DNA of 64,000 nucleotides from Felis catus (lineage: Eukaryota). The stretch is taken from the NCBI RefSeq assembly GCF_018350175.1, contig NC_058368.1, positions 86,182,001 through 86,246,000 of the forward strand, written 5' to 3'. The notes below the pieces were generated by a model. It did no database searches and had not been told where the DNA came from. It worked only from the letters and a program-made list of their open reading frames with translations. This document shows positions 647 through 55,084 of the stretch, in pieces; the stretch's first letter is position 1; every line of letters starts with the position of its first letter. The position numbers and the translations under genes are program-made.

Positions 647-667
647 GTAAACTCCGGAAAGAATATG
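647..667 (+). CDS. 21-bp heptad micro-exon (G)KLRKEY
   Basis: tttcctcttaaag|GTAAACTCCGGAAAGAATATG|gtaagt; phase 1-1. Confidence 0.85.
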
Positions 668-820
668 GTAAGTCATTCATTATTTCCTTGTGTATATCAT
701 ATTGATCACGGTATAAAAAGTCAGGCCTTTTTTGAAGGAAAGTTTTAAGAGAAAAACACTTGGTAAAGATATAAGTATATAAATACCACTTTGGAATTTG
801 GGATTGTGCATTTCCTTTCA

Positions 821-1056
821 TTTTTTTTTCTTTTTTAAAAAAATTTTAAAGGTTTTTACTTTATTATTGAGAGACAGAGAGAGACAGAGCATGAGCAGGT
901 GAGAGGCAGAGATAGGAGGAGACACAGAATCTGAAGCAGGCTCCAGGCTCCATGCCGTCAGCACAGGGCCTGACGCGGGGCTCGAACTCACAAACCACGA
1001 GATCATGACCTGAGCCAAAGTTGGATGCTCAACCGACTGAGACACCCAGGCGCCCC
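821..1056 (-). mobile_element. CAN-SINE (SINEC_Fc-type)
   Basis: Reverse complement starts ggggcgcctgggtg; (GA)n and poly-T tail; TSD about tcatttttt. Confidence 0.95.
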
Positions 1057-2074
1057 TCATTTTTTCTTAATTAGGTTGTTCAAGTGTCCATGAGCTCTAT
1101 TAGGTCATGCTGTGTCTAATCCCTTGAAGTTTGCAAATGTTGCTTTGATTCTACAGAGAGGAGAAACTGGGTAATACTTGAGGAAAATACTAAAGGAAGG
1201 TCTGCAGTTAAATCTACCAGATATACTGAAAAGGTACAGGGTGCTACATTTCAATGCACAGCACAGCCTTGTCTACTATCCAAATCTCTACTAATGTTAG
1301 CTATTCTCACTTTTTGTTGTTTGTTTGAAGTGCATGTTTTACTTGCTAACCCACTTTCACTGGAATTGAGAAAAGGAAGCTTGTATAAAATGTACTTGGA
1401 GAACATTTTTTTTCTCTTCTGCATTTTCAAAATTTCCTCATGTCTTGAGGATTCTTTCTTACCTATTCTGACCCACTCAAATTTAAAAAATTTTCCTCAT
1501 GTACCACACACCAGTTTCCAAAGTAGAAATTGCTGTTTGTGTTATCATCAGACTATGCTCCTAGATGAAGCATTAGAGGAAAATTATGTCTTTCAATGCC
1601 CAGGATTTCTTCTTGGGATGAGCAATAAAGACTAATTAGCTGTTTCAGGTTGTTTCTGGCTCTGGATATATTCTCCTCTCAAAGGCTCACTGATCTTGTC
1701 CCAGTCTCTTGTGGTTCAAACCCCATGTATAATCTGGATGAACTTTGCTTGGGAAATATTCTAGGATGACATCCACACAATCAGCAGATGGAACAGAATG
1801 GACTGACTTAGTTCTTGGAGAAAGGAGACCGTAGATGATGGAGTTATGAGCATATTTCATGATACTATGCAGTCTCTTAGAAATTATCTATTTGAGATAA
1901 TGTACACAATGCCTTCTTTTTTATTTTTTTTTCTTCTCTAGCTTTTAATTTTCACCTACTTGCCTAATATTTTACCAAGTCAGATGTTGAAAGATTTGAG
2001 TAAAGTCTGTTTCTTTAGAAATTCTTCCATATATACTTTGTTGAATTCTTTATTATATATTTGTTTTTACACAG

Positions 2075-2095
2075 AGCTCTTACGTGAACAGAAAG
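2075..2095 (+). CDS. 21-bp heptad micro-exon ELLREQK
   Basis: ttgtttttacacag|AGCTCTTACGTGAACAGAAAG|gtgagt; phase 1-1. Confidence 0.85.
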
Positions 2096-4764
2096 GTGAG
2101 TAGTATTTGTTTAAATTTTAGCGGCAGACATCATAGAAAAGTATATTGGTCAACTAAAATTTAGCAATTGATTCCATATCATAAACTATTTTTTAAATGG
2201 TCTCTCTTTTAAGCGGTTTCTCTATATATGATTAGTCATAAGTTGAAACTATTTTGTATTTTGTAACATTATAAATTATAAGTTCTATACATGATTTGCA
2301 TTTTAAAAGAGTCACAATGTGGCATCTTTGTTGAAATCTTTCTCCTGTTTATTATTTGTTTTGTTTTTTACAGTCTCAATAAGGTGTTCAGATATTCCTT
2401 TATGATTTTTCTACTATTACTTCTTAAATACAAATTAATACCTGAATTTTGATCTTCATATTGGTTTCTTCTAATATCTGAATCTATATTATTAAATAAC
2501 GATTAATGCTAATTCTATTTTATACAATAGGATGCCAATCAAATATATCACCATCAATATTGGGCACTTTTAAAGACTTTGCATTTTTCTATATGATATA
2601 TAAAATTTAAAAAATGTGATATGCATAAGCTTTGATATACCATATGCATATTTTTGTTTTGATTTTTCTTTATTCTTGGCCTTGTTTTTAGGATATTTTT
2701 TAATGGTAATTTGGTCTCTGTACCTTTGTACTTGTTTTTCTCTATTCCTGAAATATTTTATTTCTGTAATCATTTCCTAATTAACTCTGTTTTTCCTGTG
2801 GGAACCTGGTGAACCCTCACTAGTTGAGAGAGGGATATGAGTAGTCTATGGTATCCCACAGCCACGCATTCTCTCATTATTGTTTTTCATGGTGATCTGT
2901 GCATGTGACAGGTCAGAGCTATGTGTCCTCCTTTACTGAGGGAGCCTGATCCATGCGGAGCTAAGGGCGGCCAGTCCACAAATATCTGTTGAGTGGAAAA
3001 AATTATTTGTATTTATATTTTTCTTTGTCAAATTGTTTTGCTCCTTGTTTTTCTAGATTATGTATGAAATAAAATATTAGCTAGGAAACAGACCTAATGT
3101 TTTATTTCCTGATCTAGGGTTTAAAGATCACATAACACCTAATTTTTGGAGAAACACTTATGTCAAAATTAATTTCTTATATTTCCTTAATACTATATTG
3201 AATTGAATCTCATGTCTTTGGCCATGCAACTCTGGGCCAAGTGGCGCAAGGTGAAGAATCTTATCCTGGAGATGCCTAGAAATATATTTGGCATGAGACT
3301 TTCAGTTAGGCTCTATGTGACCTCAAGAGAGTGATGTGGAGGGAACACTTCCTAAGAGAGTTACTAAGTACTCTTCTCCCATGAAAGGCTATCGTTCATG
3401 TGGGAATTGACAGGGAGGACCTTAAGGAATCTGCCAAAATCCTCTCCAAAAGAAAGTGATAATTTGAACATCTAAGCACGCAGATGACCCTCATGTGAGA
3501 CAAGTTTTTCTCCTTCCTTTACACAAACTCCCACTCCACTCCACCTTCAGTTCTCATTCCTGGAGGAACCACAAGTTTCATGGGAGGTGAGAGAAGGTAG
3601 GAGACCTGAGGCAGAAGGCAAATGGGCCATTGCATGGCCTGAACAATTTAATACTCAAAATAGACATGAAAAAATAATTCTGGGAAATTTATTTGAAACG
3701 TTAACAGTGAGATTAAATAAGGTTGTTTTTTGCATAAACTTGATGATTTCTAAGTTATTCTACAAACCAGTTATAAAGCTACATATAACTATGGCCCTAT
3801 ACTCACGTTTGGTCAAATGTTTGATAAATAGCTATTGAAAATATACTTGTTTAAATAAATTTGGTAATGTCAAGAAACATACTATATTATTATCTACTTA
3901 AGAAAATTCTCAAGAAAGGCCTTGTGAACAGTTTTGCTGACTCTTCTCTGAAACACTCAAAGAAATGGGTTATCCCGAAGTGGTTGGGGGTACAATCCAT
4001 TGAAATTCCAATCGACCCTAAGTCTGCAGCCATGTGGCGTTCATTCTGGAAGACAAATCTGCAGTAAGTTTATATTAATGTAAGATAAACATGGTATGTT
4101 TCCAAGACTGTACATCTAAACAGCCTGTAGTTTGGAACATTTTAAGGTGTGAAGTGGGAAAGTACCTCCTTATTTCTAAAAATCCAAGACAGACACCTTA
4201 AGTTTTTATGGTTGCTCAAATAAAGGATATATTGCTAGAGCTGAGTATGCCAAATATACCACATCTTTAATGCAAAGTAAGGTAAACCAAACCCTCCATT
4301 TCAGTAAATCCTCCTTTCTCAGAAGCCCCCCCCCCACTTCATTTCCTTCTCATCAGCTGCCAGGTATTGTAAATGAAGTGTGATAAAATGAGGGTCTGAA
4401 GGCCACTTTCAGACTTCCCTCTTATCCTGGAAAGAATGGGTAGAATTTGTAGGTCCTTGGCACTTATATTCTCAAATTTGAGACATCATCCAAAAGAGAT
4501 CACTTTTAATATCCTATTTTATATCTACATAAACACATTTACAAGTCAAACAGTATGTATTTAGTTTGTGTTTATTATTATTATTATTATTATTCAGGAA
4601 ATAACTATCTCTCTCTGTGTCACACATATACACTGGATCATTAAGTCTTTGTTCTCAGGGTCTCTGCTTTCAAATTGAGACCAAATAATAGGACAGATAT
4701 TCCATGAATAGGGATAAGAGGACACATTCTAACAAACATTTTCTTTCTTTATTTCTTTAAATAG

Positions 4765-4785
4765 GGAACATAGAAAAAAAGAACG
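4765..4785 (+). CDS. 21-bp heptad micro-exon GNIEKKN
   Basis: tttctttaaatag|GGAACATAGAAAAAAAGAACG|gtaagt; phase 1-1. Confidence 0.8.
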
Positions 4786-7029
4786 GTAAGTGATATTTAT
4801 ATTTGATTGAAGCAGTGTTTGAATATCCCATATCAATATTCCAATATTGATGTTCTTTCATTATTATTAAAGAACAAATTCCAGGCACCCCATGTGTGAC
4901 CTAAAAGTTTTCGAAACAAGTAAAGTATCTTCCTGCTACTTTAAAAAGTGAACATAACTATTCATAAGACAAAGTTTTAGGCATAAATACAGAAGAACAA
5001 GATGAATCCATGTGTGCCATTAGCGCTGGAACTCAGGTCTTATGTTCAGTGCCATTCAGTGAGGTCATTTGTCTTTTGTATATATAGTAATTAACTGACT
5101 ATTTTACAGTCAGTGCTTAAGAAACAATGAGACAAAAGGACTATCTTTCTTTATGGAAGTTGCTGTAAGAATGATACAAATTCCACATTTAAATAATAAA
5201 TAAAAAACAAATATTCTAATATTTGTTATGGAGGAGGGTTAATGATACCATGGATAGTACAACAGTTGGACTGGGCTTAGACATGAGGTTCTAGATTTGC
5301 TAAAGAAGGTCAATGCAGAAGAGGCTGGAGATATTGAAAAGGACAGGTAGATCAAAGAGAGAACTACCACATGTAAAGCAGAAAGCACAACATGCACTAA
5401 ACTCTGAGGGGAGGTGAGCCTGTGGTTCCATTAGAAGAGACAATATTAGCCAGGTGCCTCTGGTTCTGAAAACCTAGACAAGGCTATACGTAGGCAAAGG
5501 CTGGTAAATGCAACATCTCCTTACCATTCTAAGAATTTTGAATGCTCTCTAAGAATTTTGAATATTATCCAAGAAAATAAGGAAATCATATAAATTCTAA
5601 AAAGGGGTACAGTGACAAGATTTTCAATTCAAAAATGTTATTTTCTTGAAGGTAGAGAACAGATTATATGGTTAGTGGTGAAAAAAAAAAAGAAAAGAAA
5701 AAGGAAAGCTAGGACAATCTACTCTGAGATATACACTGAACTAAATAAACAGGTCTTAAAAGTCTGTACATGTTTGTGTACAGCCTGTGTAAAATCGGTA
5801 GTTTAATGGAAAAGAGAAATCCTATGTAAAGTCTATGGTTTAATTTTGACTCTAATTTCCATGACCTGGAAGCCTATGTCCCTGCTGCGTTTAATTTTGG
5901 AATCCTATTAAGGTTTAGATTTTCTATGCAACAAACATTCTCACTTAAGGAAAGCTGTTGATCAAATGTAAAAGTACTCTGAATGGGTCTGTATAACATA
6001 AGCCCATTCTGACTGAAATCAGAATTAACTACAAATTAATCCAATTCTGAAACCACTATACATATATTTGTTACATTTCTAATAATTTTTCTCAACTCAT
6101 TTTCCCAGAATTGAATTAGTAAAGAAAAACTTGAATTCATTTCATAAAAAATACCAACAAGTATCTTTTCTCTTATCAAAAAAAAAAAAAATAAACGTGA
6201 TTCATGGAAGAATGAAAGGATTTATCTGTTTAACAAAGGTAGGTTAGTCATGTGGGACATATCCTGAGAGGAAAAAAAAAAATATTTGTCTTCATTGTCC
6301 TCCTCATCATCATCTTCACCACCACCAACAACCTACATTTATTTATTAATGCTCTTTACATTTAAAAAATGTGCTTTACAATAGTAATACATAGGCAAAT
6401 ATGGAGCACATATTTCTTTCTGTCATGTACCTAAAATTAAAAGAAGAATAAAGTAAATGTATTAATAAAGTAATACATCAATGAACTAGCAGAAACTATG
6501 ACTGAGGAGGTAGATAGAAGGCAGATAATAACCAACCTCTTAATTTTAGAATTTAATATTTATCTTATGAGTGGTGAAAGGAACTGAGGAATTCTGAGTA
6601 AGTAGGTATTCAACATAAAAATTATAAGATCCTAGTTTTAAAAAGACTGCATTAGAGAATCCATTGATGTGTGCAGGAGTGGGCATTGGAAGACCTGTAA
6701 AGGAGCTTCCACAGTCAATAAGCAAGACTCAGAAGGCTGATGAAGGGTGGAGGTTGGTGGAAGGGCTTGGGAGAGCAGGAAACCTAAGATGGAGCTAGAG
6801 TCAAATGACCATAATGAATAATTCAATGTGGAGGGTGGAGTGGGAGGAAATGGAGAAGGAAATACAAACAAAACGCCCCTCTTAGTGGCCTGTACAGCTG
6901 GATCCAGTGATTTTATTCACTAAGTTGGTAATAAAATTCAATACTTAATTCATCAACTCTCTTAACATTAGTAATCTCTTCAATTGCCTAAACTTCTGAT
7001 AATTAGAACGAATCCCTCAGTGACACTTG

Positions 7030-7063
<34 letters not shown>

Positions 7064-7331
7064 TTAATCTTCATTCTCTGTTTTGGATTTATTGTTTTGT
7101 CTTTGCTTTTTATAGTCACAAACTGAATTTTTATTTTATACATTTTTTGACACAGTCATTTTTCTGTATATCATTTGTCTTTTATTCCCTTTCTGTCAGA
7201 TCACCTGAAGGATGGGATTTATAAATGAACAGCAATTTTGTTTTTAATTTTATGAGAATAAGGGAAAAATCAGTAATTCAATGCTTAAAAAATAAAGTTT
7301 ATTAAGTTTTATTTAAAAATAAGTCAGTTAA

Positions 7332-7524
7332 GGGGTGCCTGGGTGGCTCAGTCGGTTAAGCATCTGACTTCAGCTCAGGTCATAATCTCACAGTCCGTGA
7401 GTTCCAGACCCCCGTTAGGTTTTGTGCTGACATCTCAGAGCCTGGAGCCTGTTTCAGACTCTGTGTCTCCCTCTCTGCCCCTCCCCTGCTCATGCTCTGT
7501 CTCTCAAAAAAATAATTAAAAAAA
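7332..7524 (+). mobile_element. CAN-SINE
   Basis: ggggtgcctgggtggctcagtcggttaag head, CT-rich tract, A tail. Confidence 0.95.
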
Positions 7525-7749
7525 TATCAGTTAATTATGCTATAGAATAGTGTTTATTTTCATTAAAATGTTACAATTAATCTCTAAAAGAATATAGCAC
7601 ATTATGAAAAACATGCATTAGATTATTCCTTTCACTATTGTGGGGTAAAACTATTCTGCATATTTAGATAATGAGAATATGGCAAGATATTTTAAAGGGA
7701 TTATAGATGGGTAATAGACACCTAATGGGTCCCTTTTTCTTTCCTTGAC

Positions 7750-7973
7750 TTTTTTTTTTTAATTTTTTTTTCAACGTTTATTTTATTTTTGGGACAGAGA
7801 GACACAGAGCATGAACGGGGGAGGGTCAGAGAGAGGGAGACACAAAATCGGAAACAGGCTCCAGCCTCCGAGCCATCAGCCCAGAGCCTGACGCGGGGCT
7901 CGACCTCAGGGACCGCGAGTTCGTGACCTGGCTGAAGCCGGACGCTTAACCGACTGCGCCACCCAGGCGCCCC
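7750..7973 (-). mobile_element. Young CAN-SINE (CpG-rich SINEC_Fc-type)
   Basis: CpGs retained; TSD tttccttgactttt on both sides. Confidence 0.95.
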
Positions 7974-8923
7974 TTTCCTTGACTTTTTAAAAATAAATTG
8001 ACACATATCATTTTTGTAACAAATTATGTTTATAATTAAACACAAAGAATATAACCCTTGTGAAAATGAGCACAAATACCTCGGATGGCCCTTCTCTTAA
8101 AGCACCTTGATTTTGGAATGGTGCTTCAATTGTCAGGCAGCTTGTTAATGCCTCTGTGGGTGAAGAAACTGGGTCTTATTCATCACAATGAAAATAGTGC
8201 TTTGTCTAAAAAAGAGTCTCAGTAAAAATGTGCTGGATAAGTAGAAAATTTTAGCAGTTAAATTAGGAATATCATGAATAAAAAGTAATAAATGCTACTT
8301 GTGGACATGTCAGATAAGTTAAATACCAGATGCTGAATGCAGATTTTTTTTTCACGTTAGCTCATTTATCCATCACATTGTAAATAACAGTATCAACCTA
8401 ATTTATGGTACTTTCTTGATATCACACAGATCACACTTGAGAGAGATATAATTTGGTTATATTTGGAAAAGCTCTGTTCATATTTTGAACCAACTCTAGC
8501 TGGCCACCATGAGACTCTAGTTTAAAATTTTATTATCTATTCACATAAGTGCAATTTCTAACTGCATGACAATTTGTGTTTCATAAATTTTTATATTACT
8601 TACAACTCTATGCCCTATCTTTGAATATCAATTTCTTCCTTAATTTACATGACTGTGATTTCTGTGGTAGTGCCTATATTTTTGTGCTTACATATGTAGC
8701 ACAAAAACAGACAAAAAGATTAAATGATAAATCATGATTATATTATAGTGAAATGATAAATAATTATTGTTATAATTTTCTTAGAAGAATGTTTTGTTGT
8801 CTGGATTATAAAATAAAATCACCATTTTGATTCTGAATGCATGATGTACCCATATATTGATTTATTTAAAATAAATTATTTAAAATAAATTACCTTATTT
8901 ATTTATTTAAAATAAATTACCTT

Positions 8924-9165
8924 GGGGGTTATTGGGTGGCTCAGTCAGTTGAGCATCTGACTCTTGATTTCAGTTCAGTTCATGATCTCACAGTTCGTGC
9001 ATTTGAGCCCTGCACTGAGCCCTATGTCAGGCTCTGTACCATTAGTGTGGAGACTGCTTGGGATTTTCTCTCATCCTTCCTTTCTGCCCCTCTGCTGCTT
9101 GCACATGCTTTCTCTCTCTCTCTTTAAAAATAAATAAGTAAAATTTTAAAAAAAATTAAAAAAAA
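8924..9165 (+). mobile_element. Older CAN-SINE
   Basis: tgggtggctcagtcagttgagcatctgactcttgatttc head; A tail. Confidence 0.9.
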
Positions 9166-9349
9166 CTTTTTTTTTCCTAGTAAATGCAAAACTTTTGCAA
9201 AGGAAAAAAAAACTCTATTGATAACTGGATGCTAAATATTCTTAAGTCACATATCAATTTCAGGTACATATTGAACAATATATTGAACACATATTAAACA
9301 TTATATCTGGCAAAGCTCATATCCCTAAGAATTCCGTTTTTTTTTTTAA

Positions 9350-10325
9350 CGTGATACATTTCTATTTGGAATATATTGACCACACTATAACCTGGTAATG
9401 TTCACATCAATATCACATCACATAATTATCATTTATTTTTTGTGGTGAGGATATTTAAAATCTAGTCTCTTAGCAACTTTGAAACAGCTCTTTAAAACCA
9501 AAATAAAATAAAATAACATAATTAAATTAAATTAAATTAAATTGTGCTTATTTTTTTATCTTTTTTATTGAGATATAATTGACAAATTACATTGTGTAAG
9601 TTTAAGGTATACAATGTGTTGATTCCATACATTTACATATTGCAATATAATTATCACCAAGGCATTAACTAACAACTCCATAATGTTGCATAATTATGAT
9701 TTATTTACTGAGTAAGAAAAATCAAGATCTATCTTCTTAACAACTTTGATTTTTCTAATACTGTGTATTTGACAATAATTATTATGCTGTACAACAGATC
9801 TCAAAAACTTATTCATTTCCAGTTTTAAGTTTATACCCTTGGGCAAAATCTCTTAAATTCCCTCTACCTCCAGCCTTTGGTAATCATTATTCTATTCTCT
9901 GTTTCTATGACTTCAGGTTTTTTTTAAATTCCATATATAAGTGATATCGCACAGTATTTTTCTTTCTCTTTCTGACTTACTTAATTTAGCATAATGCCAT
10001 CACAATTCACTTTCATTCATGTGGTTACAACTGGCATTTACTTCTTTTTCCGTCGATAAATAACGAACAGTGACAATAATAATAATAATAATAATATACA
10101 TAGTGATGTTGACCATATTTTTATGTACCTGTTGTTCTTTTGGCTATTTGTATGTCTTCTGTGGGGAAATGTCTACTCATTCCCTTTGTCCATTTTTTAA
10201 AACCAGATTGTTTGCTTTTTGCTATTGAGTCGTATATGTTTTTATATGGTTTCGACATTAACTCTTTCCTCATGATTTGCAAATATTGTCTTGCTTTCTG
10301 ATTGCTGCCTTTTCATTTTGTTGAT
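9350..10325 (-). mobile_element. Old L1 (L1MA-like) 3' end fragments
   Basis: ttttattgagatataattgaca...ctattctctgtttctatg...ttccatatataagtga, typical antisense L1M 3' UTR and ORF2 end. Confidence 0.75.
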
Positions 10326-10615
10326 TTTTCTCACAGTTCTGGAAGCTGGGAAATCCAAGTACAGGGCACCGGCAAATCTGGTGTCTGAGAGTCCACTTCC
10401 TTGTTTGCAGATGGCCATGTTCTCACTGTTCTGTCACAAGGCAGAAGATGGGAGCAAGAACAAGTGTTCATGGCTCTTCTTATGAGGGCACTAATCCTAT
10501 TCATGAGGGCTCCACTGTAAAGACCTAATTACTTTCCAAAGCCCCAACTTTCTAATATTATTACACTGGGTTTAAAAGCATATGAATTTTGTAGAAATAA
10601 ATTCCATCCATAAAC
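10326..10615. mobile_element. MaLR LTR fragment (MLT1-like)
   Basis: ttctcacagttctggaagctggg...ttatgagggcactaatcctattcatgagggctccac...gacctaattac motif. Confidence 0.8.
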
Positions 10616-11595
10616 ATGACATTACAGGCACGGTAGCCAAAAATCTTGATGTTGACATATTTTTAAAAAATAAAACCTAGCAAACAGGTTACAGAATTTT
10701 CTACTTTTTAAATTGCCAGGAAATACCTAAATACTATAACCTTATGGCACTTTACCATGAAAAAGACATGTGGCAGCATATATTGCCCCTACCTCCACCA
10801 GCATGCTCAACAACTCACGCAAAGGAAGATAATAACATAAATAGTGGTGAAAGAAAGTAGAAAGAGAGTAAATGAACAGAAAATAAATAGGGTTAAAAGC
10901 CAAAGAAACGAAGGGCATGGAGCCCTATACCATTGGTGAAGCTGGAATCTTGTAGTTACTCTGATGTGTCAGGACAGAGAGTTGTAATACCATTTGTGGG
11001 TGGGTGTATCTCATTGTCCTTCTGACATCTGTGCATATGTGTGTATGGGAGTATTTTTCTGTGTGTGTGTATGTGTGTGTGTGTTTATATATTTTATATG
11101 TTACTGCACCTGTGGATTAAACTGGGTACAGTTTTCCTATCCCATAAAAATCACACATAAAAAATGAAAAAATTCATAGTATATTGAAATTCTTTCTTAA
11201 TATGTTAGGACTAAATTACATTTTCAAAACAAACATTATAGCTGAACTAACTGCATTTAGTTTTTAATTCTTAAGGTGCGGAGAAAAAATTATATCCAAA
11301 CTCACTGGCGCTTTCAATGCTAGTTTCTTAAATTTATCCTTTTTTTTTGTTCTTTTGATGAGGGCAGTCTGTCCATAGGCTTAATACAAACACCTGGGAG
11401 AGGCTATTTCTTGTCAAAATTTTGCATTATGATCCTTTGAATTACAATAAAGCAAAGGCAGCCAAAGACTCTAAATACCTATTTTCCAAATATGTAACTT
11501 GAATTCAATCTCTCTCTTTCTCTCTCTCTCTCTCTCTTTCTCTTTCTTCTTCCCAAGCAATTTACATGTGCAAAGATTAGAAAGAGAGTCTAGTT

Positions 11596-11814
11596 GGGGC
11601 ACCTGGGTGGCTTAGTCCGCTAAGCATCCAATTTTGGCTCAGGTCATGATCTCATGGTTCATGAGTCTTAGCTCCACATTGGGCCCTGTGCTGACAGCTC
11701 AGAGCTCAGAGCCTGAAACCTACATCTGATTCTGTGTCTCCCTCTCTCTCTATTCTCCTTCCCCACTCATGCTCTGTCTCTCTCTCTCTCAAAAATAAAT
11801 AAACATTAAAAAAA
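11596..11814 (+). mobile_element. CAN-SINE with a 20-bp TSD, ending about 50 bp upstream of the GKLHEEL exon
   Basis: TSD attagaaagagagtctagtt at 11576-11595 and 11815-11834. Confidence 0.95.
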
Positions 11815-11885
11815 ATTAGAAAGAGAGTCTAGTTAATGATTCCTGACCAAATTCTCACAAGACTTGTCACTGTTTTGCATTTCAG

Positions 11886-11906
11886 GAAAGCTTCATGAAG
11901 AACTTG
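11886..11906 (+). CDS. 21-bp heptad micro-exon GKLHEEL
   Basis: ttttgcatttcag|GAAAGCTTCATGAAGAACTTG|gtaagt; resembles the butyrophilin KLxEEL heptad. Confidence 0.9.
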
Positions 11907-11983
11907 GTAAGTAATATTTCTCTGTGAGGATAGACATGTAAATATATGTCAAAACAAACTCTTACCCTATCTCATTCTTTCAG

Positions 11984-12010
11984 AAAGGATAAAATTCTTG
12001 GGAGAAGAAG
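11984..12010 (+). CDS. 27-bp micro-exon ERIKFLGEE
   Basis: ctcattctttcag|AAAGGATAAAATTCTTGGGAGAAGAAG|gtgagt; preceded by a 77-bp intron. Confidence 0.9.
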
Positions 12011-12153
12011 GTGAGTAATGAAAATGACCATCTGTAGCCCTGACTCATGCACTTGCCTTTTGACCACTCATCCTTTTCTTGTTTTATTCATTGGTAAACC
12101 TTGGTTACAAAACTATACTCTTTTTCTTTTATTTTCTTTTTTTTTAATTTTAG

Positions 12154-12180
12154 GGTTGAAATATGCTCGACGCTATGCAG
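12154..12180 (+). CDS. 27-bp micro-exon GLKYARRYA (pre-PRY exon)
   Basis: Long polypyrimidine tract ...ttttag|GGTTGAAATATGCTCGACGCTATGCAG|gtaact; an ARxYA-like motif typically precedes VTLDPDT in butyrophilins. Confidence 0.9.
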
Positions 12181-12795
12181 GTAACTAGAGACTGAAGTAT
12201 TTGGATATTGGTTCTTATTTTTAGCCAGTACACTGGGCCACCAGACAAGGGGTCTCACAAACTCACACCAAACATATGCGCACGCACACACACACACATC
12301 CCTTTTTTTCTCCAAAATTTCCACTTTGTTATGCTTATTATTGAGTATGTTATAGCTATAGCTCCTTATATATCACAAATGGTCCTGCTTCTGAGGCTCA
12401 GTGATGGATGGAAGCAGAACATTAGAGCCCAAAATGATATCATCTAACATGCTTTTCAGAACCAGAAATTCATTGGCGAATGTCTCTAGGGTGTAGCTGA
12501 CAGGGAATGGGGTAAGGGCAGGCTGCCTTCTTACTATGTTAGGATGGAGGCTACTGACACAATGCCACTAATTTCCAAGGAACCAAAATTTGTGGCCCTT
12601 CATTTAATTTGTCAAACTGAAAAACCAGAAGTTTTTGACATCTAACAAATTGTCAAATTTATGACCTCTGTTTAATATTAGGAACAGCAACAATTTGTGT
12701 TATATTTTCTAACTTTGTATTAATGATTTCAAAGTATTTTCATTTGATTCCCACAAATACACTGTGAGGAAAAAATGCCAGGTATTAATATACTG

Positions 12796-12796
<1 letters not shown>

Positions 12797-12842
<46 letters not shown>
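12797..12842. repeat. (TA)n microsatellite
   Basis: Direct observation. Confidence 0.95.
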
Positions 12843-12844
<2 letters not shown>

Positions 12845-13716
12845 GAATATTATTAGGAGATTTCTCCAGTTTATATGACTAATTTACATAATATTTACTT
12901 TCATGAGACAACTTTAGAGGCACTCTTACCAATTGAATAAAGTATAGTCTAGATATCAGATATTGCTTTGGAAAAATACCCATGAGCAACTAAGCTGCAA
13001 TGGCTTTAAGTGCATACAATCTTATATTTACAGTGCTAACTAAGACTAAGAGTCTTTAGTTATTTTTAATATTGCATTAATACTAATGGAATTTTCTTTG
13101 TGGTTACACTAATACAAGTAGAATTTAGTTTTGCTTATAACTATGATCACTTAATTAATAGGAGAAATACATACAGTGTACATTAACAGAATCCTGTGTA
13201 ATTAGGTAAATATCTGAATCAAGTTTAGCTTTGCTTTGTGTGTTTATATACTTAGCATACAACACTTTAAAAATTATTTTTGTATCCATGTATCTGAATT
13301 TTGCACCTATATGAAAGCAGTTTTAGGAAAATCAATTGAGTAAATCTAGATAAATTTCATTTGATGATTTATAACAATTTTAAACTATCAAAACATTGAG
13401 AATCAATGTAAATATTTATAATTGTCTTCAGTTAATTCACAAATTGATTCAGGTAAGTCTGGACTTGAAGCCAAACATTGATGGATATTAATAATCATTG
13501 TTGGACAAACTTCTCTAAGTATTTGTTGTCTCAACTACAAAATGAAAATATTTCTTCATTTCATATTTTGTTTTGAATATTGAATATTTATAAATGTGCT
13601 TCATGTACCAGTAAGCAGAAAAAGTTCCTAGATAAAGGAAGGACTCTTGTATATTGCATTAATTACTGTTGAATATAATTGATCATAGCCAAGACTGACA
13701 ACATGTTCTTCTATAG

Positions 13717-14287
13717 AAAATGTTACCCTGGATCCAGACACAGTAACCCATATCTCCAAATTACTGATGACAACAAAAGTGTGAAAGGAGGTGATACCTT
13801 TCAGGAACTACCCAAAAAAAGACAGCGGTTTGATAACCTGGTCTGTGTATTAGGTCAGCAAATTTTTTCCAAAGGTAAACACTACTGGGAAGTGAGTGTG
13901 AAAAATAAAATAAAATGGACTTTAAGCATTTGTAAGGATTCTGTCTGCAGACAGGGAGAAATCATGGTGTCCTCTGAGACTGGGTTCTGGACAATAGGCT
14001 TGAATAGAAACAATGACTATCAAGCTCTTTTAAACCCACAGAAAACACTCCACCTCGAGGAATCTCCTGAGACTATTGGTATCTTCCTGGACTATGAGGC
14101 TGGAAGAGTGTCGTTTTATAATGTGACCAATCTTTCTCACATCTACACCTATAGAAACTGCTTCACAGGTTCTCTGAGGCCATACTTTTATCCTGGCCCC
14201 CTCTACAATGGTCAAAATGAACACCCTCTCACCATCCTGCCCTTAGGTCATATTAGAAAAGCCATAGGAAGAAGACGTTCTATGTGA
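13717..14287 (+). CDS. B30.2/PRY-SPRY terminal exon, frameshifted near 13743
   Basis: ttcttctatag|AAAATGTTACCCTGGATCCAGACACA reads ENVTLDPDT. The other frame carries NPYL, RFDNLVCVLG, GKHYWEVSV, IGIFLDYEAGRVSFYN and FTGSLRPYF, ending at TGA 14285-14287. Confidence 0.92.
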
Positions 14288-14314: not shown

Positions 14315-14438
14315 CTGCTGAAACTAGGGATTTTTATGAAGTTTGTAAATATTCTAATATATATATATATAATATTATATAATTATATATGTATATGACA
14401 ATATTTACAAACTTCATAAAAATCCCTAGTTTCAGCAG
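14315..14438. repeat. Perfect 39-bp inverted repeat with a 46-nt TA-rich spacer in the 3' UTR
   Basis: ctgctgaaactagggatttttatgaagtttgtaaatatt (14315-14353) is the exact reverse complement of 14400-14438. Confidence 0.95.
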
Positions 14439-14491: not shown

Positions 14492-16759
14492 ACAAAAATG
14501 TTTTATTTTAGAATGATGGACTTCTCCCTTCAAATAAATCGAAAATCTAAAAATCATTTTGATGCCATAATTTATAACTTTTTTATCATTTCAGTTCCTA
14601 ATGTATCTTTTGTTAATGGACAAGAATTGTTTGAGTTAAACTACATGATGTAGAACTTACTTGATGACTATTCAAGGCCACAGAACTAAATACAAAACCC
14701 AAAAGAAGCATCTACTTGTGCAAGTGATGAAGGAAAGTTAATTCCCAGTTGACCCTCATGGGTATGGTCTCTCCTTCATTCATGTTTTGAGATGGAAGAA
14801 GACACGGACTCTGCTCCACATCATCAGGAAATTGGCTGGAGCCCACACCTTATTGACTTTGCCCAAACCTAGAGGAGTATGATGGCTTTGACAAGGGAGT
14901 TCTAACCCTAGACTATGTAATATTCACTACAAAAAAAAATCTTCAAGTGAATATGTCTTCCAACTACTCATTTCTTTACTTTTTTACCTCCATTCTTTTT
15001 TGAAGTTTAAATGTACACAATCTCCAACTTAATTTAATATAATTGTATCATTCATTCGTCTACTTAACAAATGCTTATTAGGTACTGTATCTATGTTTTG
15101 TAGGTATCGGTAATCTAAAACACCATAGATTGATTATCTGTAACTGTAACTGTGTATCTGGTACTGCTAATAAACAGGCAAACACTGATAAATTGTTACT
15201 AATTTCAAAATGTTGTGTGGGAAAGGCTAAAGGTATCCAGATACAGAACAATAGTGAGTAGGTTCACTTCAGTCTACTCATCAGGAAAACTCTCACTGAG
15301 AAAGGGATGTATAGAATATGGAATTTCCCACATGCATAGCTGTAAATTATTAAAATCAAGACAACATGCAAAATGCAGAAAGACTGGGTCTGGGTGAGAA
15401 AGTAGAAGAAGACCTATGGGGCTCAGACAGAATGGTTTTAAATTAGGCCGCAGACTAAGTAGCTTAAGTAACCAGACAGGAGGAGCTGCCATGCATTTTC
15501 TTCATGCACCAGCAGGCCATTTGGTGTTATTATAATAAAATATATAATATATAAGTAAGGAAATGTTAAAATAAAATTTTTGAGAAAAAATAATTTATTA
15601 ATTAATCAGTTAATAAACAAATAATAAATGAACTGTTCTAAATCAATGCTGAACCTAATGTCATTAAGTTATTTCAAGAGATGTGACCTAAATATGATTA
15701 AGTGGATCTAACAGCTCACATTCATGGAATATTTAATAAGGTCAAGAGAGAACATGGATAATTTAGGAGAGAACTGTAGGTGTATTCTGAGGTGCTGTCC
15801 CCGAAAATTAAGAGCTGGTATGGTTGCCTGCCCCTCACTTAAAACACGTGGGAAAAAATTAAGAAGATAGTCTGTCTCATGAAATCTAAAGAACACAATG
15901 GACCTATGTTTGCCTTCTGTCTTGAATATTGATAGTGAGAGAAGGGCCAGTAGCTACTCTGTAACATAATGGAGCAGTGCTGCATTGTATAATCTGTGCA
16001 ATTAGAGCTTTTCTGGGGGAAGATCTCATGTTTCCTGAAGGATAGAATATGGTCCATGAGAAAGAATCCCTCTGGGATGCTGCCTGAAAAAGTGAATACA
16101 TATTAGTATGTTAGTGGAAATCACATTGTGTATCACAGGATGCCTGGTGGGTGAGAACAGAATCTTGACAAGCCAAAATACAGACATATTTCACCTTCCT
16201 CACGTTAACAGCAGGAAAAAAGTCCTCAGATATTTGGGGGCCTTTGAAGAACTAAGGAGGGAAAAATGAGCTTGAAATGATTTCTAAATATAGCTCATTA
16301 CAACAATTATCAAGTAAAAAAATCTCACTCTTGTTATAAGGTTAATAATAATAATAAATGTAGCTCACGTCAATAATAATTAAGTAAAAATGTTCTGACT
16401 CCTGTTACCTTTAAAACCCTCTCATTCCAAAACTCCACAATTCCCTACAATGCATGTTTTCCCTTACTTCAGGGAGTAATATACCCAACTCATCCAATTA
16501 CAGGTGTTTTCCTGGTAACCTTTAGCTAGAGGACATTGATAAGTGTTAAGGAGAAAAGACATCTATCATATTGAGGCATATTTCTACCAACATTAAACTC
16601 TCCTGTAGAATAAGATTTAGAAAATGGAAACTTTAGGGTAAAAGGGAAATTCATGAGAAAAGTAATTTGGGAAACTATTCTTGTGTGTATTCCCACACAA
16701 GACACGATAAAATTTCATTGTGCTGAAATACCTGCAATTCTGCTTTAATTAAAAATAAG

Positions 16760-19700
16760 AAAATGAGGGACATGTAAATGGCTCAGGAATAGTGTGACTT
16801 CTCTAAGCTTGCCTGATTCTTTGAACACAGCTAGATACATAAGAAATAATTATCAACACCCAAGGAATCAATATGAAGACTGAGGGAACTATACTGCACA
16901 TCTACAAGTAGAAAAATGACCAGATCCTGGTAGGGAGGAACTGCAGAAATTTGATATGGAGGAGAAAAGAACTGTGAGTGCTGCAAAATGGAAGGAGCCA
17001 TGATTACAGAGAGAGGAGTAAGCTAGCAAGCAAGCGAGAGAAAAAGAGTAAAGCAGTAGGCAGAGGATTGCATAAGGAAAATTCTTCCCTTAATCCATTG
17101 ACTAGGAAAAGGAGAGGGGCTGATATTTATAAGTTATTCTAAGCAGCAGAGCACAAAGTCTGAAGTTTAAAAGTACACGCCATCACCTGGAGTCATGCCT
17201 GGTGAGCTTAGCAGTGTTCCTTTGGGGAATGAGGGTGGAAATCTGGGATTGGGCAGCATGATATGAGGGTCATCTGGATCACATGGTTGGAAACAGTTCC
17301 TGTTTTTAAAGTGTATTTGGGAGTGGTGGCACAGCTTCTCTGGGTTAAAAGAACTGGTGGTGCCAATTTGGTGTCTTGTTCATTAGAATAGGGACAGGGA
17401 CATCAGCTGAGGGCAACAAACTTGATGCTGGCTTTTGTTATGCTTTACCATAAACTCTGAACCAACGTGCAGTCATAAGACTACTTTTCTGGGACAAACC
17501 AGCAAATATCACGAGCACACTGAGACCCTCCCTCAGAAGAGCTGTGCAAGTCTGCACTTCATGGGTTCATAAAATGTGGAGTTTTAAAACCCAGCCACAT
17601 GCCTGAAGTATAACACAGGAGTTCTGTCCCTCCTGAAAGGTAGAAAGCTCAGACCCAGACAGGGTGATGGCAGGGATCTGACAGAGGCTGGAGACACAAG
17701 AGTGTGTCTCCTCCAGGGTGGAGAGAGTGGGGTGAGACCATCTCAACTCCCCAAGTCCATCAGATGGACAAACTTCAATGAGCAACACAGTGCTCCATAG
17801 GGGAGATTAGAGCATTTTACACCAAGACCCACCACCCTGCACCCTGAGAGTACATCTCCACTGCAGCACGTAGACTTGAGAATCAGTGCAGCAGGGCTCT
17901 CCCCAGAGGACCAGCACAAACCCCTCGTACCAAGTCTACTAATCATCGAGTACTCCATACCTTCAGTGTAGGGGATCTAGTTGCTATTTTATTTTTTTTT
18001 ATTGTATTTCAGTATTAGTTTTTTTTTTTATGTTGATCTGACTTCTGTTAACAAGTAGACCAAAACACAGATAGTTAAAACTTGCCACACAGTGGACAAT
18101 GTCTGAAAACCCCCCACTGCAATCAAGGAGAAATTATTCAGATGACTGAAATAAGGGTATATATAATCAACCAAAAAATAACAACAGAGTGCATATAGGA
18201 AACCCCTCCCACATTTTTATGGACCTGTTTTTAGTATAAGCATTGTTCTCAAGAGCAGGAATATAACAGGCTTACTTAAAAATCACACAAAATGGCACAA
18301 AAACAGACACATAGACCAATGGAATAGAATAGAAACCCCAGAACTAGACCCACAAACGTATGGCCAACTCATCTTTGACAAAGCAGGAAAGAACATCCAA
18401 TGGAAAAAAGACAGCCTCTTTAACAAATGGTGCTGGGAGAACTGGACAGCAACATGCAGAAGGTTGAAACTAGACCACTTTCTCACACCATTCACAAAAA
18501 TAAACTCCAAATGGATAAAGGACCTAAATGTGAGACAGGAAACCATCAAAACCTTAGAGGAGAAAGCAGGAAAAGACCTCTCTGACCTCAGCCGTAGCAA
18601 TCTCTTACTCGACACATCCCCAAAGGCAAAGGAATTAAAAGCAAAAGTGAATTACTGGGACCTTATGAAGATAAAAAGTTTCTGCACAGCAAAGGAAACA
18701 ACCAACAAAACTAAAAGGCAAACAACCGAATGGGAAAAGATATTTGCAAATGACCGATCAGACAAAGGGCTAGTATCCAAAATCTATAAAGAGCTCACCA
18801 AACTCCACACCCGAAAAACAAATAACCCAGTGAAGAAATGGGCAGAAAACATGAATAGACACTTTTCTAAAGAAGACATCCGGATGGCCAACAAGCACGT
18901 GAAAAGATGTTCAGCGTTGCTCCTTATCAGGGAAATACAAATCAAAACCACACTCAGGTATCACCTCACGCCAGTCAGAGTGGCCAAAATGAACAAATCA
19001 GGAGACTATAGATGCTGGAGAGGATGTGAAGAAACGGGAACCCTGTTGCACTTTTGGTGGGAATGCAAATTGGTGCAGCCGCTCTGGAAAGCAGTGTGGA
19101 GGTTCCTCAGAAAATTAAAAATAGACCTACCCTATGACCCAGCAATAGCACTGCTAGGAATTTATCCAAGGGATACAGGAGTACTGATGCATAGGGCCAC
19201 TTGTACCCCAATGTTCATAGCAGCACTCTCAACAATAGCCAAATTATGGAAAGAGCCTAAATGTCCATCAACTGATGAATGGATAAAGAAATTGTGGTTC
19301 ATATACACAATGGAATGCTATGTGGCAATGAGAAAAAATGAAATATGGCCTTTTGTAGCAACGTGGATGGAACTGGAGAGTGTGATGCTAAGTGAAATAA
19401 GCCATACAGAGAAAGACAGATACCATATGGTTTCACTCTTATGTGGACCCTGAGAAACTTAACAGGAACCCATGGGGGAGGGGAAGGAAAAAAAAAAAAG
19501 AGGTTAGAGTGGGAGAGAGCCAAAGCATAAGAGACTGTTAAAAACTGAGAACAAACTGAGGGTTGATGGGGGGTGGGAGGGAGGAGAGTGTGGGTGATGG
19601 GTATTGAGGAGGGCACCTTTTGGGATGAGCACTGGGTGTTGTATGGAAACCAATTTGTCAATAAATTTCATATATAAAAAAAAAAGAAAAAAATGCTAAC

Positions 19701-23055: not shown

Positions 23056-25332
23056 AATGCCCTATTATTTTAAAAATAAAATTACATACTTGGGCTGATA
23101 TTGTCAATCTGTCCTTTTCCCCATGTCATAGGTCTTGTTCAAATCCTTGGAATAAATCCATCACCAGGCTATAGAAAAATTCCTCAGGGTCAATGTCAGG
23201 TATTATCTCCTCTTCCTCCTTCTTCTCCACCTGCCACTGAAGGACTCACAGATGTAGTTTAGCTACTTCTTTGACGCAGATATTTAAAGCAAGATGTTAG
23301 TGGTGAAGCATTGCTTAAAATCTACTAAAGACATCACAATTTTAAATACAAAAATTTAATTATATCTCTGGATCTAAGAAAGTAGTATTATTTTTTAAAG
23401 TAAGTGTTCACCTACTTTCCAAGGAAGGATGTAACCTGAGCATTATACATGTCTAACATGTTCTTTTCTTTTTTTTTTCCTTTTTTTACTTAATGGAATT
23501 TATTGTCAAATTGGCTAAAATACAGTGTATAAAGTGTGCTCTTGGTTTGGGGGTAGATTCCCATGGTTCATTATTTACATACAACACACAGTACTTATCC
23601 CAACAAGAACCCTCCTCAATGCTCATCACCCATTTTCCTCTCTCCCCCACAAACCATCAACTCTTAGTTTGTTTTCTATATTTAAGAGCCTCTTATGATT
23701 TGCCTCCCTCCCTCTCTGGTTGTAACTATTTTTCCTCTTCCTTTCCCCCATAGTCTTCTGTTAGGTTTCTTAATTTATACATATGAGTGAAAACATATGA
23801 TATCTGTCTTTCTCTGACTGACTTATTTCACTTAGTATAATACCCTCAAGTTCCATCCATGTTGCTGCAAATGGCAGGATTTCATTCTTTCTCATTGCCA
23901 AGTAGCACTCCAATGCATATATAAACCAAATCTTCTTTATCCATTCATCAGTTGATGGACATTTAGGCTCTTTACATAATTTGGCTATTGTTGCTAGTGC
24001 TGCTATAAACATTGGGGTACATGTGCCCGTATGAATCAGCACTCCTGTATCCCTTGGGTAAATTCCTTGTAGTGCCATTGGTGGGTCATAGGGTAGTTCT
24101 GTTTTTATTTTTTTTTTTGAGGAATGTCCACACTGTTTTCCAGAGCAACTGCACCAGTTTTCATTCCCACCAACAGTGCAGGAGAGTTCCCATTTTTCCA
24201 CATCCTCACCAGCATCTGTTGTTTCCTGATTTGTTCATTTTATCCACTCTGAATGGTGTGGGGTGGTATCTCAGTGTAGTTTTAATTTGCATTTCGCTGA
24301 TGATGAGTGATGTTGAGCATCTTTTCATGTCTGTGTTGGGCATCTGGATGTCTTCTCTGAAAAAGCGTCTATTCATGTCTTCTGCCCATTTCTTCACTGG
24401 GTTATTTGTTTTTTGGGTATTAAGTTTGGTAAGTTCCTTATAGATTTTGTATACTAACCCTTTATCCAATATGCCATTTGCAATTATCTTTTCCCATTCC
24501 ATTGGTTGACTCTTAGTTTTGAGTGTTTCCTTTGCAGTGCAGATTTTTTTTTTATCTTGATGAGGTCTCAATAGTTCATTTTTGCTTTTAATTCCCTTGC
24601 CTTTGGGGATGGGTCAAGCAAGAAATTGCTGCAGCTGAGGTCAAAGATGTTATTGCCTGTTTTATCCTCTGTGATTTTGTGGTTTCCTGTCTCACGTTTA
24701 GGTCTTTCATACATTTTGAGTGTATTTTTGTGTATGGTGTAAGACAGTGGTCTAGTTTCATTCTTTAGCATGTTACTGTCTAGTTTCCCAGCACCATTTG
24801 CTAGACTGTCTTTTCCACTGTATTCTCTTCCTTGCTTTGTTGAAGATTAGTTGGCCATACATTTGTGGGTCCCATTCTGGGTTCTCTATTGTAATCCATT
24901 AGTCTGTGTGTCTGCTTTTGTACCAATACCATGATGTCTTGATGATTACAGCTTTGTAGTAGAGGCTAAAGTCTGGGATTGTGATGCCTGCTGCTTTGGT
25001 TTTCTTCTTCAAAATTACTTTGGCTATTTGGGGTCTTTTGTTGTTCAATACAAATTTTAGGATTTTTTTTCCTACCTTTGAGAAGAATTCCCATGCAATT
25101 AGGACTGGGATTGCTTTGAATGTGTAGATTGCTTCGGTACTATTGACATTTTAACAATATTTATTCTTCCCATCCATGAGCATAGAATGATATTTCATTT
25201 TTTTGTGTCTTCTTCAATTTTCTTCATCAGTTTTCTATAGTTTTCAGCATACAGATCTTTTACATCTTTGGTTAGGTTTATTCCTAGGTATGGTAAGGTT
25301 CTTGTTGCAATTGTAAATGAGATCAATTTCTT

Positions 25333-49149: not shown

Positions 49150-50790
49150 CTACAATAAAAGGTGTTTTTCCTCCCTGATGGTTTCTTTCAAGTTTTTTTT
49201 TTGTATTTGTTTTTGATTTTTAGCAGTTTGACTATCACATGCCTAGTTGTAATTTTTAAGGTATTTATCATTTCCATGTTTCCTGGGTTTCATTTATCTG
49301 TGGTCTGGTGTCTGTCATTAATTTGGGAAATTCCCAGACATTATTTCTTCAAATGTTTCTTATATTCTTTTACCACTTTCTTCTTTTGGTATTCTTATCA
49401 CATGTATATAACACCTTTTTGTAATTGTCTCACAGTTCTTAGCTATTCATATGTTTTATCATTAAGTTTCCATTTTGAAAGTTTCTATTGACCTTTTGTC
49501 AAACTCACTGGTGTTTCCTCAGCCATGTCAAATTTATTGATGTCTGATCAAGACATTTTACATTTGCTTACAGTGGTTTTGACTTCTAACGTCTCTCTTT
49601 TATTCTTTCTTAGAGTTTCCATCTCTCTGCTTACATTATCTATCTCTTTTTGTATGTTGTACAAATTTTCCATTAGAAATTCTATCCTATTAATTTTGTT
49701 TTTAGTTCCTAGTCAGATTATTTCTACACCTCTTCTTAATGAGAGTGTGATGTGGATTTTCCTTCTATCTCTCAAAATCCCTTTCTCATCTTTTAGTAAG
49801 TCATGTAATCTTTTTTCTTGAAAGCTGGGCATGATGTGTGGGGTAAAAGCACTGAAGTAATAGGCTTTAATGGAAAATTTTATGTTTATCTAGCTAGGAG
49901 TTAGTCTGTGTTTACTGTTTGTTCTAGCTCTAGGTACCAGAGGCTGAATTTCTGTCATGTTTTTGTTTTTATCTCCCCTTTTGCATTTGGTTTGCCATAG
50001 AGATTTCTACTTCAATAAGGTCTGAAGTATGTGTTTCTTTTGTTGTATTTCCCTGCTATTTTACAGGATCCTTATTGATGTGGTGGTAAGGTTAGGAGAA
50101 AGGGCATATGCTAGTTGTATAATTAAGTTCCAACATTTCAGTGAGCCTGAGATTTTACACAATGATTTGTACAAGAGTTTCTCAGTTGTCCTCCTTCCCC
50201 TTCCCTTAGGTGTTACAGGATGGTTAGCAGGGGCTAGAGCTAGGCATTTACCTCCCCAGGTTACTAAAGCTCCGATAAACCCAGTATCTTAGATTTTGCT
50301 AAAATAGTTCTTTTGAGGACAAGCCTTTTAGGAACAGAATTATTGGGGGGAATTTCAAGATTACAACTTTCCCCCTCTATTTGCAGTTTGTATGAAGGAA
50401 GAAAGTTTTCCCCAATCTTCACTATAAAAATCTAGAAGAGCTTCTAGAGGTAAAATTCACAAAATTGTATAGGTCCCCCTGAGAAGGAGTTTCTTTACAT
50501 TTTTAACTCATAAGATTATCTATCTCAAGCCTCCTCCATTCATCCAGCACAGTTTAAGTTTTTCTCCTGAGTTCCATGGATGTTTCCTATTATGGTAAAC
50601 AGATTCTCTGTATCTGCTGGGTGGTCTTTCTAATTTGGGGGCAGCTGTTTTCCCTATGAATTCAACTTTCTGTTGGAGTTAAGGAGAGTTGTTCATTTTG
50701 AGTTTGTTTGTTTTCTTGTTGTGAGAATAGGAGTGAGGACTCATTAGTCCCTTCTTTATATGCCAGATTGGAAACCACAATCCCTGAGAA
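49150..50790 (-). mobile_element. Ancient L1M ORF1 and 5' region
   Basis: tttagcagtttgactatcacatgcctag; ttgggaaattcccagacattatttcttcaaatgtttc (antisense ORF1). Confidence 0.7.
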
Positions 50791-50935
50791 TTTATTTATT
50801 TTGAATATCAGTATGCCTTAAGGAGTTAGAATTGAATGAACATACTATATATAATGTTTAATTAATAAGTCAAGAGTGTCTCCTAATTTCCAAAAAGTCA
50901 TCAACAGCAAAGGGTTTTTGAAATTAAAAAAATGC

Positions 50936-51120: not shown

Positions 51121-51144
51121 TAGAAGATATTCCTTTTTAACATT

Positions 51145-51187
<43 letters not shown>

Positions 51188-52810: not shown

Positions 52811-52865
52811 TTACTCTTGCTTTATGATGTTTGTGATATATTAGAGCTAAAATACCCCGGGTCTT

Positions 52866-54120: not shown

Positions 54121-54133
54121 AAAGGAAGCATTA

Positions 54134-55075: not shown

Positions 55076-55084
55076 AAACAAAGG

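What the first reader, a model, noticed from the sequence alone, without database searches (positions are those of the whole stretch)
647..14287. Butyrophilin-like gene tail built from micro-exons invisible to the ORF track
Seen: six 21- or 27-bp phase-1 exons with good AG/GT sites spread over 11.5 kb. They join without stops into a charged heptad peptide leading into VTLDPDT. Established: BTN/BTNL/ERMAP genes encode the juxtamembrane coiled coil in such micro-exons before a B30.2 exon. Inference: this is a butyrophilin-family immune regulator that I cannot match to a named human member, possibly a lineage-restricted or poorly annotated paralog.
Basis: partly seen in the sequence, partly recalled or inferred. 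Interest (0 to 1): 0.7.

Follow-up and report, generated by a model that had tools for sequence, protein, structure and literature searches.

The report
Cat butyrophilin gene with null allele
The tiny exons are real and are spliced into an unnamed butyrophilin-family membrane protein gene of cats; this genome's copy is broken by frameshifts while RNA from other animals filed under the same species is in frame, so the gene likely segregates as working and dead alleles.

Summary
Observation confirmed. Six 21/27-nt phase-1 exons (647-12180) plus a seventh upstream link a transmembrane exon to a B30.2 exon (13717-14287). Signal, IgV, IgC and TM exons lie 45-70 kb upstream, so this is a butyrophilin-like gene, not a TRIM. 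RNA shows 8 of its 11 junctions. The micro-exon stalk is a known design, and NCBI already predicts the gene in ten other felids as 'BTN1A1-like'. (1) It is not this genome's BTN1A1, BTN2, BTNL2, BTNL10, ERMAP or probable BTNL9/MOG. It belongs to a separate placental clade in an olfactory-receptor cluster beside TRIM58; no human, mouse or ungulate member was listed in three searches. (2) This genome's copy is a null: IgV acceptor AG>AA, IgV Cys46Tyr, 2-nt IgC deletion, 1-nt B30.2 deletion. DNA of two other runs matches the frameshifts (one run at both, one at B30.2 only), while two RNA datasets are in frame at both. Best reading: a working gene with a segregating loss-of-function haplotype. Function is inferred from the family only; the phosphoantigen-binding histidine is absent.

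The parts
647..667 (+). Micro-exon 2 of 7 (21 nt, phase 1, one heptad)
   Evidence: spliced to micro-exon 1 in RNA of X15, X17 and X24 (loose ends)
2075..2095 (+). Micro-exon 3 (21 nt)
   Evidence: spliced to micro-exon 4 in X24 and X17; the junction 667/2075 itself was not displayed
4765..4785 (+). Micro-exon 4 (21 nt); skipped in some RefSeq isoforms of other felids
   Evidence: spliced to 11886 in 7 X24 reads and an X17 contig
11886..11906 (+). Micro-exon 5 (21 nt)
   Evidence: GT..AG joint to 11984 in 8 X24 reads and an X17 contig
11984..12010 (+). Micro-exon 6 (27 nt)
   Evidence: its joint to 12154 was not listed (the tool skipped a repeat at 12116-12157)
12154..12180 (+). Micro-exon 7 (27 nt)
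   Evidence: GT..AG joint to the B30.2 exon in 6 X24 reads and an X17 contig
13717..14287 (+). Terminal B30.2 (PRY-SPRY) exon to its stop codon
   Evidence: Pfam PRY and SPRY above cut-off; 177 of 180 residues identical to lynx after the frameshift
13743..13744 (+). 1-nt deletion (frameshift) of this genome's allele
   Evidence: 33 of 36 X24 reads and an X17 contig carry one more base; X4 and X5 DNA contigs match the window
14595..14653 (+). Alternative last exon reached from an internal donor at 13874; gives an isoform that ends after the PRY part
   Evidence: X17 loose end at 13874 maps here; the same ending is in RefSeq isoforms of lynx, cheetah, clouded leopard and leopard

Best explanation
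The window holds the 3' half of a butyrophilin-like gene whose copy in this genome is broken, while RNA of other animals under the same species label is spliced and in frame, so it is likely a working gene with a segregating null haplotype. Shown: 12 exons over about 84 kb (signal, IgV, IgC, TM, seven micro-exons, B30.2), + strand. In the five consecutive 21-nt exons and the next one, exon position 3 is always Leu or Ile. Inferred: the intact 513-aa protein is a type I membrane protein that dimerises through this stalk as a parallel coiled coil. By analogy with BTN2A1/BTN3A and BTNL3/BTNL8 it likely presents its IgV to a T-cell receptor or co-inhibitory counter-receptor, and uses B30.2 to bind a cytoplasmic partner. 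It is predicted not to sense phosphoantigen. In-frame skipping of micro-exons and an alternative last exon would tune stalk length and drop the SPRY part. The null allele would stop at residue 27 or 236 and likely undergo nonsense-mediated decay.
For: Upstream exons and lesions. Domains. Junctions 8 of 11 displayed, with first mates mostly on the - strand, as expected for a + strand RNA. In-frame allele: X24 33 of 36 reads (B30.2) and 14 of 17 (IgC); X17 contigs at both. Null allele: X5 contigs span both sites and an X4 contig spans the B30.2 site without differences; X4 and X5 are different samples and studies. Of 6 amino-acid changes private to this genome against 10 felid orthologues, 4 lie in read-covered exons; the RNA allele has the felid residue at 3 and shows no difference from the genome at the fourth. 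Cys46 is invariant in 13 of 13 and Gly394 in 14 of 14 clade members that cover them. Full-length B30.2-bearing models were seen in 6 felid species. BTN3A1 His351 (Arg in BTN3A3) aligns with Leu (role from PMC7348870, passages).
Against: No run gave DNA and RNA of one animal, and no DNA run with the in-frame allele was laid. The IgV lesions were not covered by reads. Three junctions were not displayed, and short reads do not prove one full-length transcript. Eight derived coding or splice changes on the null side look high beside only 5 intronic SNVs in about 1.7 kb between the two haplotypes (small counts). Tissue, protein expression, dimerisation and ligand are untested. Species labels are coded.
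Confidence: 0.75

Rival explanations
1. The in-frame RNA comes from a near-identical extra copy (copy-number variant) missing from this assembly, and the locus in the window is a fixed pseudogene.
For: The cluster is rich in duplications: five B30.2 exons in 560 kb and a 12.18-kb seven-fold repeat. No in-frame DNA run was laid.
Against: X17 shows only non-reference letters at every listed site that it carries, introns included, and X4 and X5 show only reference letters. That is the pattern of opposite homozygotes, unless the dead copy is silent. The in-frame sequence corresponds to the single felid orthologue cluster.
Confidence: 0.1
2. The gene is dead in the whole species, and the in-frame RNA comes from a sister species or hybrids filed under the same label.
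For: All 14 DNA-type runs listed hold 0.94-0.95 of the words, whereas an in-frame homozygote would lose about 10% more. Several lesions have piled up on the null side.
Against: Those runs were ranked by likeness to the window, so they give no frequency. Non-reference letters appear in three datasets from different studies (X24, X17; X15 at one site only). Intronic divergence is only about 0.3%, and the RNA shows no difference at a residue change found in none of 10 other felids.
Confidence: 0.1
3. The lesions are assembly errors and the gene is intact in all animals.
For: RNA is in frame, and indels near short A runs are typical long-read errors (own knowledge).
Against: Short-read contigs of two different samples and studies reproduce the B30.2 deletion, and one of them also the IgC deletion. 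At most one of the two can be the assembly's source. Linked SNVs differ along the whole stretch.
Confidence: 0.03
4. For function: the intact protein is not a T-cell ligand but has a non-immune role, such as lipid-droplet secretion (as BTN1A1) or an erythroid one (as ERMAP).
For: The tissue of expression is unknown, and scores against human BTN2A1 and BTN3A are nearly equal, so no functional orthologue is indicated.
Against: Birth-and-death evolution of the cluster and patchy presence among mammals are typical of immune gene families (own knowledge). Real BTN1A1 and ERMAP lie elsewhere in this genome.
Confidence: 0.25

Closest known systems
RefSeq 'butyrophilin subfamily 1 member A1-like' of felids (e.g. 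Lynx canadensis XP_030170666.1; Prionailurus viverrinus XP_047732583.1, named 'butyrophilin-like protein 9')
   Same: Direct orthologue: identical micro-exon peptide, 111 of 115 IgV and 177 of 180 B30.2 residues; 67-member cluster, ten felid species among the 15 listed.
   Different: These are automatic predictions whose names are borrowed from other subfamilies. This genome's allele is broken.
Human BTN2A1 and BTN3A1/A3 (full-length structures, e.g. 8zhr, 8zjy)
   Same: Same domain order, IgV-IgC-TM-coiled coil-B30.2; best PDB matches at 319-341 bits. The juxtamembrane coiled coil controls dimer pairing there (PMC10665462, passages).
   Different: [quoted passage not shown] The genome's BTN2A-like gene is elsewhere. 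The phosphoantigen histidine is replaced by Leu.
BTNL10 (Butr1)
   Same: Same chromosome arm, 1.5 Mb away; same architecture; some clade members are named 'BTNL10' by NCBI.
   Different: This genome's BTNL10 is a separate locus at C1:87.7 Mb (B30.2 68% identical to chinchilla BTNL10, support 99) and falls outside the window gene's clade in both trees.
Chicken BG genes
   Same: Cytoplasmic heptads encoded by 21-nt exons, with expansion and contraction of copies (PMC4046983, passages).
   Different: BG proteins have one Ig domain and a long tail of many heptads (same paper); no sequence comparison was made here.
Human BTNL8*3 copy-number variant
   Same: A frequent natural loss-of-function polymorphism in a butyrophilin-like locus (PMC8968916, part 1 of 3 read).
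   Different: That is a fusion of two genes; here point lesions disable one gene.

Membership tests
Butyrophilin (BTN/BTNL) family | Signal peptide, IgV and IgC exons upstream | tested here: met
   C1:86111869, 86122580, 86134798; Pfam V-set and C2-set_3 on the lynx orthologue
Butyrophilin (BTN/BTNL) family | Single transmembrane exon spliced to the stalk | tested here: met
   C1:86137037-86137150; IgC-TM joint in 25 X24 reads, X17 and X15; TM to micro-exon 1 loose ends
Butyrophilin (BTN/BTNL) family | Cytoplasmic heptad repeats followed by B30.2 | tested here: met
   Leu/Ile at position 3 of six successive heptads; PRY and SPRY; feature as stated in PMC4046983
Butyrophilin (BTN/BTNL) family | Surface dimer that engages T cells | not testable with these tools
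   Needs expression and binding assays; the fold job did not finish
Intact gene in this genome | Open reading frame through all exons | tested here: not met
   Stop after 27 or 236 residues, depending on the IgV acceptor used
TRIM | RING/B-box exons upstream of B30.2 | tested here: not met
   TRIM58 tblastn finds RING/B-box only at C1:85.39 Mb; RNA links the stalk to TM and Ig exons
BTN1A1, BTN2A, BTNL2, ERMAP, BTNL10 orthology | Groups with the named gene in domain trees | tested here: not met
   Each has its own locus in this genome and lies outside the window gene's clade (IgV 99/90, 29 of 64 rows)
BTNL9 and MOG orthology | Groups with the named gene in domain trees | tested here: inconclusive
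   Loci C1:89.15 Mb and C13:0.33 Mb lie outside the clade, but their names are recalled, not taken from a named reference
BTN3 (phosphoantigen sensor) | His351 pocket residue in B30.2 | tested here: not met
   Leu at that column in the alignment to BTN3A3; residue role from PMC7348870. No BTN3 row was in the trees.
SKINT | Three or more TM segments and a short tail | tested here: not met
   One TM exon and a B30.2; Skint1 IgV scores 70 bits against 86-100 for BTN/BTNL3/BTNL8/MOG; SKINT1L is reported absent in cats (PMC5960712, passage). SKINT was not in the trees.

The most novel reading that the evidence does not exclude
An undescribed, ancient placental butyrophilin subfamily beside TRIM58, lost in humans and mice and rebuilt in carnivores and bats by a domain swap between two ancestral paralogues, acts as a T-cell (probably gamma-delta) ligand in cats, which lack SKINT1L. 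A common natural knockout haplotype lets pet cats serve as a ready-made genetic test of its function.
Probability: 0.25. Interest if true: 0.7.

Novelty: new member of a known kind. Interest (0 to 1): 0.42.

Why it matters
The micro-exon architecture is ordinary for the family, and the gene is already predicted in other cats. What is useful: (1) a butyrophilin clade hidden under borrowed names that no named gene in this genome accounts for; (2) an assembly that carries the dead allele will hide a gene that other animals express; (3) a segregating null makes function testable by genotype-phenotype work without engineering; (4) butyrophilins shape gamma-delta T-cell compartments in human and mouse, and candidates are wanted in species without SKINT1L.

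Tried and rejected
TRIM identity: rejected. BTNL10 orthology, my first guess from recalled synteny: rejected. An inversion splitting the next paralogue, suggested: rejected (the minus-strand signal exon at C1:86.10 Mb has its own intron; the downstream paralogue simply lacks that exon). A weak 21-nt candidate at 13432-13452 (acceptor score 1.6): no joint in RNA and not in the orthologue models seen, so not counted. Mosaic origin: only half shown. For B30.2, carnivores and bat group with tamandua and golden mole (98/99) and the alternative is rejected (p-AU 0.021). For IgV and IgC the grouping with tamandua and golden mole is not rejected (p 0.31, 0.24), and the groups were named after the first trees were seen. 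The union of both B30.2 types had 98 in the quick tree but 51/25 in the smaller careful tree. ESM Atlas gave only generic butyrophilin clusters. The AlphaFold job had not finished, so no model and no fold search. Afrache et al. 2012, the family phylogeny most likely to mention this clade, is not held. Ten literature searches listed nothing on this clade or allele, judged from titles and abstract starts; most subscription papers and all supplements were unseen.
Full report
Observation. The window is G000:C1:86182001-86246000 of a 2.43-Gb genome. It is a felid by 97-98% protein identity to lynx; earlier scan notes call it a cat, which I did not test. A splice-site scan recovers the six exons named, four of 21 nt and two of 27 nt, far above chance: 6 observed, mean 0.075 and maximum 1 in 200 resamples. 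They join without a stop into a B30.2 exon starting at 13717.

Gene model. TBLASTN of felid proteins against the adjacent genome places the signal exon at C1:86111869, IgV at 86122580, IgC at 86134798 and TM at 86137037. A seventh micro-exon is at 86167174. The gene has 12 exons over about 84 kb. The lynx orthologue (P0128, 513 aa) carries Pfam V-set, C2-set_3, PRY and SPRY. RNA laid on two stretches displays 8 of 11 junctions: IgV-IgC, IgC-TM, TM-m1, m1-m2, and m3-m4, m4-m5, m5-m6, m7-B30.2. Signal-IgV, m2-m3 and m6-m7 were not displayed. Heptads before a B30.2 are a stated family feature, and 21-nt repeat exons are described for chicken BG genes (PMC4046983, passages). That mammalian BTN heptads sit on such exons is recalled, not read.

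This copy is broken. It has four lesions. The IgV acceptor is AA where three paralogues have AG. IgV Cys46, invariant in 13 of 13 aligned clade members, is Tyr. IgC lacks 2 nt. B30.2 lacks 1 nt near 13743. Read as the genome stands, translation stops after 27 or 236 residues.

Other animals. Of 24 runs listed I laid five. X24 (raw RNA, a pool of up to four samples, same species label) is in frame in 33 of 36 reads at B30.2 and 14 of 17 at IgC. X17 (spliced contigs) is in frame at both and non-reference at five intronic SNVs. X5 DNA matches the window's genome at both frameshifts; X4 was laid only on the B30.2 stretch and matches there. So the frameshifts are real and not fixed among runs with this label. 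Of six residue changes private to this genome against ten felid orthologues, four lie in read-covered exons; the RNA allele has the felid residue at three and shows no difference at Val231Ile (the TM rows were offset by one and ignored). The two other IgC differences that I translated are synonymous. All 14 DNA-type runs listed hold 0.94-0.95 of the words, against roughly 0.85 expected for an in-frame homozygote. The null is therefore probably in many animals, but the list is ranked by likeness and gives no frequency. Gaps: no in-frame DNA run was laid, no DNA/RNA pair, and the IgV lesions were not covered.

Which butyrophilin. The gene is one of a cluster with five B30.2 and four IgV exons between 85.64 and 86.27 Mb, several of them broken. 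The cluster lies among olfactory-receptor ORFs, starting 230 kb from TRIM58 (TRIM58 exons up to 100% identical to the Prionailurus protein; OR subfamily names are recalled). This genome's BTN1A1, BTN2A, BTNL2, ERMAP and BTNL10, labelled by best named hits, and the probable BTNL9 and MOG (labels recalled) are elsewhere. In an IgV tree of 64 rows the gene sits in a 29-row placental clade (99/90) that excludes all of them; the tree has few columns and no human, BTN3 or SKINT rows. A quick B30.2 tree of 62 rows agrees. Clade members come from carnivores, fruit bats, hedgehog and moles, sloth and armadillo, aardvark and manatee, squirrels, chinchilla, guinea pig and galago. Three word-limited searches (best 120 of 646, all 99, best 120 of 1173) listed no human, monkey, mouse, rat, dog or ungulate member; that suggests loss but does not show it. 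Against solved structures, BTN3A3 and BTN2A1 score alike (341 and 338 bits). The carnivore and bat proteins look mosaic: the ectodomain is 59-71% identical to aardvark, manatee, sloth, armadillo and hedgehog proteins whose B30.2 is only 45-48% identical, while B30.2 is 70-74% identical to tamandua and golden-mole proteins whose IgC is 44% identical. Only the B30.2 side passed an AU test.

How it likely works. Shown: exon-locked heptads with Leu/Ile at position 3 and 13 basic against 7 acidic residues in 42; RefSeq isoforms of other felids that differ by whole micro-exons; a second last exon at 14595-14653 used in X17 and in several felids. Inferred: a parallel coiled-coil dimer, perhaps with the sister paralogue, since stalk charge governs BTN3A pairing (PMC10665462, passages); an IgV that engages T cells, as BTN2A1 and BTNL3/BTNL8 do (PMC8968916, part 1 of 3 read); no phosphoantigen sensing, as His351 is Leu (PMC7348870, passages). 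Cats are reported to lack SKINT1L, and other butyrophilins are proposed to stand in (PMC5960712, passages). Tissue and ligand are unknown.

Known or new. The human list of 14 butyrophilins (PMC6017450, passages) and a human/mouse/mole-rat comparison (PMC11102460, passages) name no such clade in what I read. PMC11835228 (passages) added only the chicken BG description. Ten searches found no paper on it, but Afrache 2012 could not be read. Earlier scan notes describe the neighbouring paralogues and the BTNL10 pair, not this gene. Verdict: a real, ordinary butyrophilin architecture in an already predicted but unnamed gene, with a probable segregating null allele as the most useful new point. Interest 0.42.

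Noticed in passing
window 14315-14438: Near-perfect inverted repeat (55-nt arms, 95%) starting 28 nt after the stop codon; folds at z = -17 against shuffles. The paralogue at 85.64 Mb does not align over the second arm. The short-tail isoform splices over it.
   Followed up: partly
window 49695-62188: Upstream region and first intron of a further paralogue, 74-82% identical to this gene's, lacking the signal-peptide exon; its IgV at C1:86268294 has a TGA stop. A dead gene.
   Followed up: partly
   Followed up: partly
G000:C1:85.64-85.74 Mb, 85.77 Mb, 86.00 Mb, 86.10 Mb: Further broken or partial paralogues on both strands (frameshifts, stops, a 5' fragment head-to-head with this gene).
   Followed up: partly
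P0128 versus P0016, P0013, P0171, P0172, P0176: Ectodomain and B30.2 of the carnivore and bat proteins have different nearest relatives, suggesting an old domain swap.
   Followed up: partly
window 18182-19453, 23770-24613, 26526-26942: ORFs that read like LINE-1 ORF2 fragments (label recalled).
   Followed up: no
G000:C1:85563440-85564447 and 86415933-86416940: Two olfactory-receptor ORFs with near-identical starts flank the cluster in opposite orientation, hinting at an inverted duplication.
   Followed up: no
P0249 with P0190, P0200, P0203, P0210: In chinchilla, BTNL10 and members of this clade are each listed on a contig of the same length (1,344,166 bp), suggesting old linkage of the two loci.
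   Followed up: no
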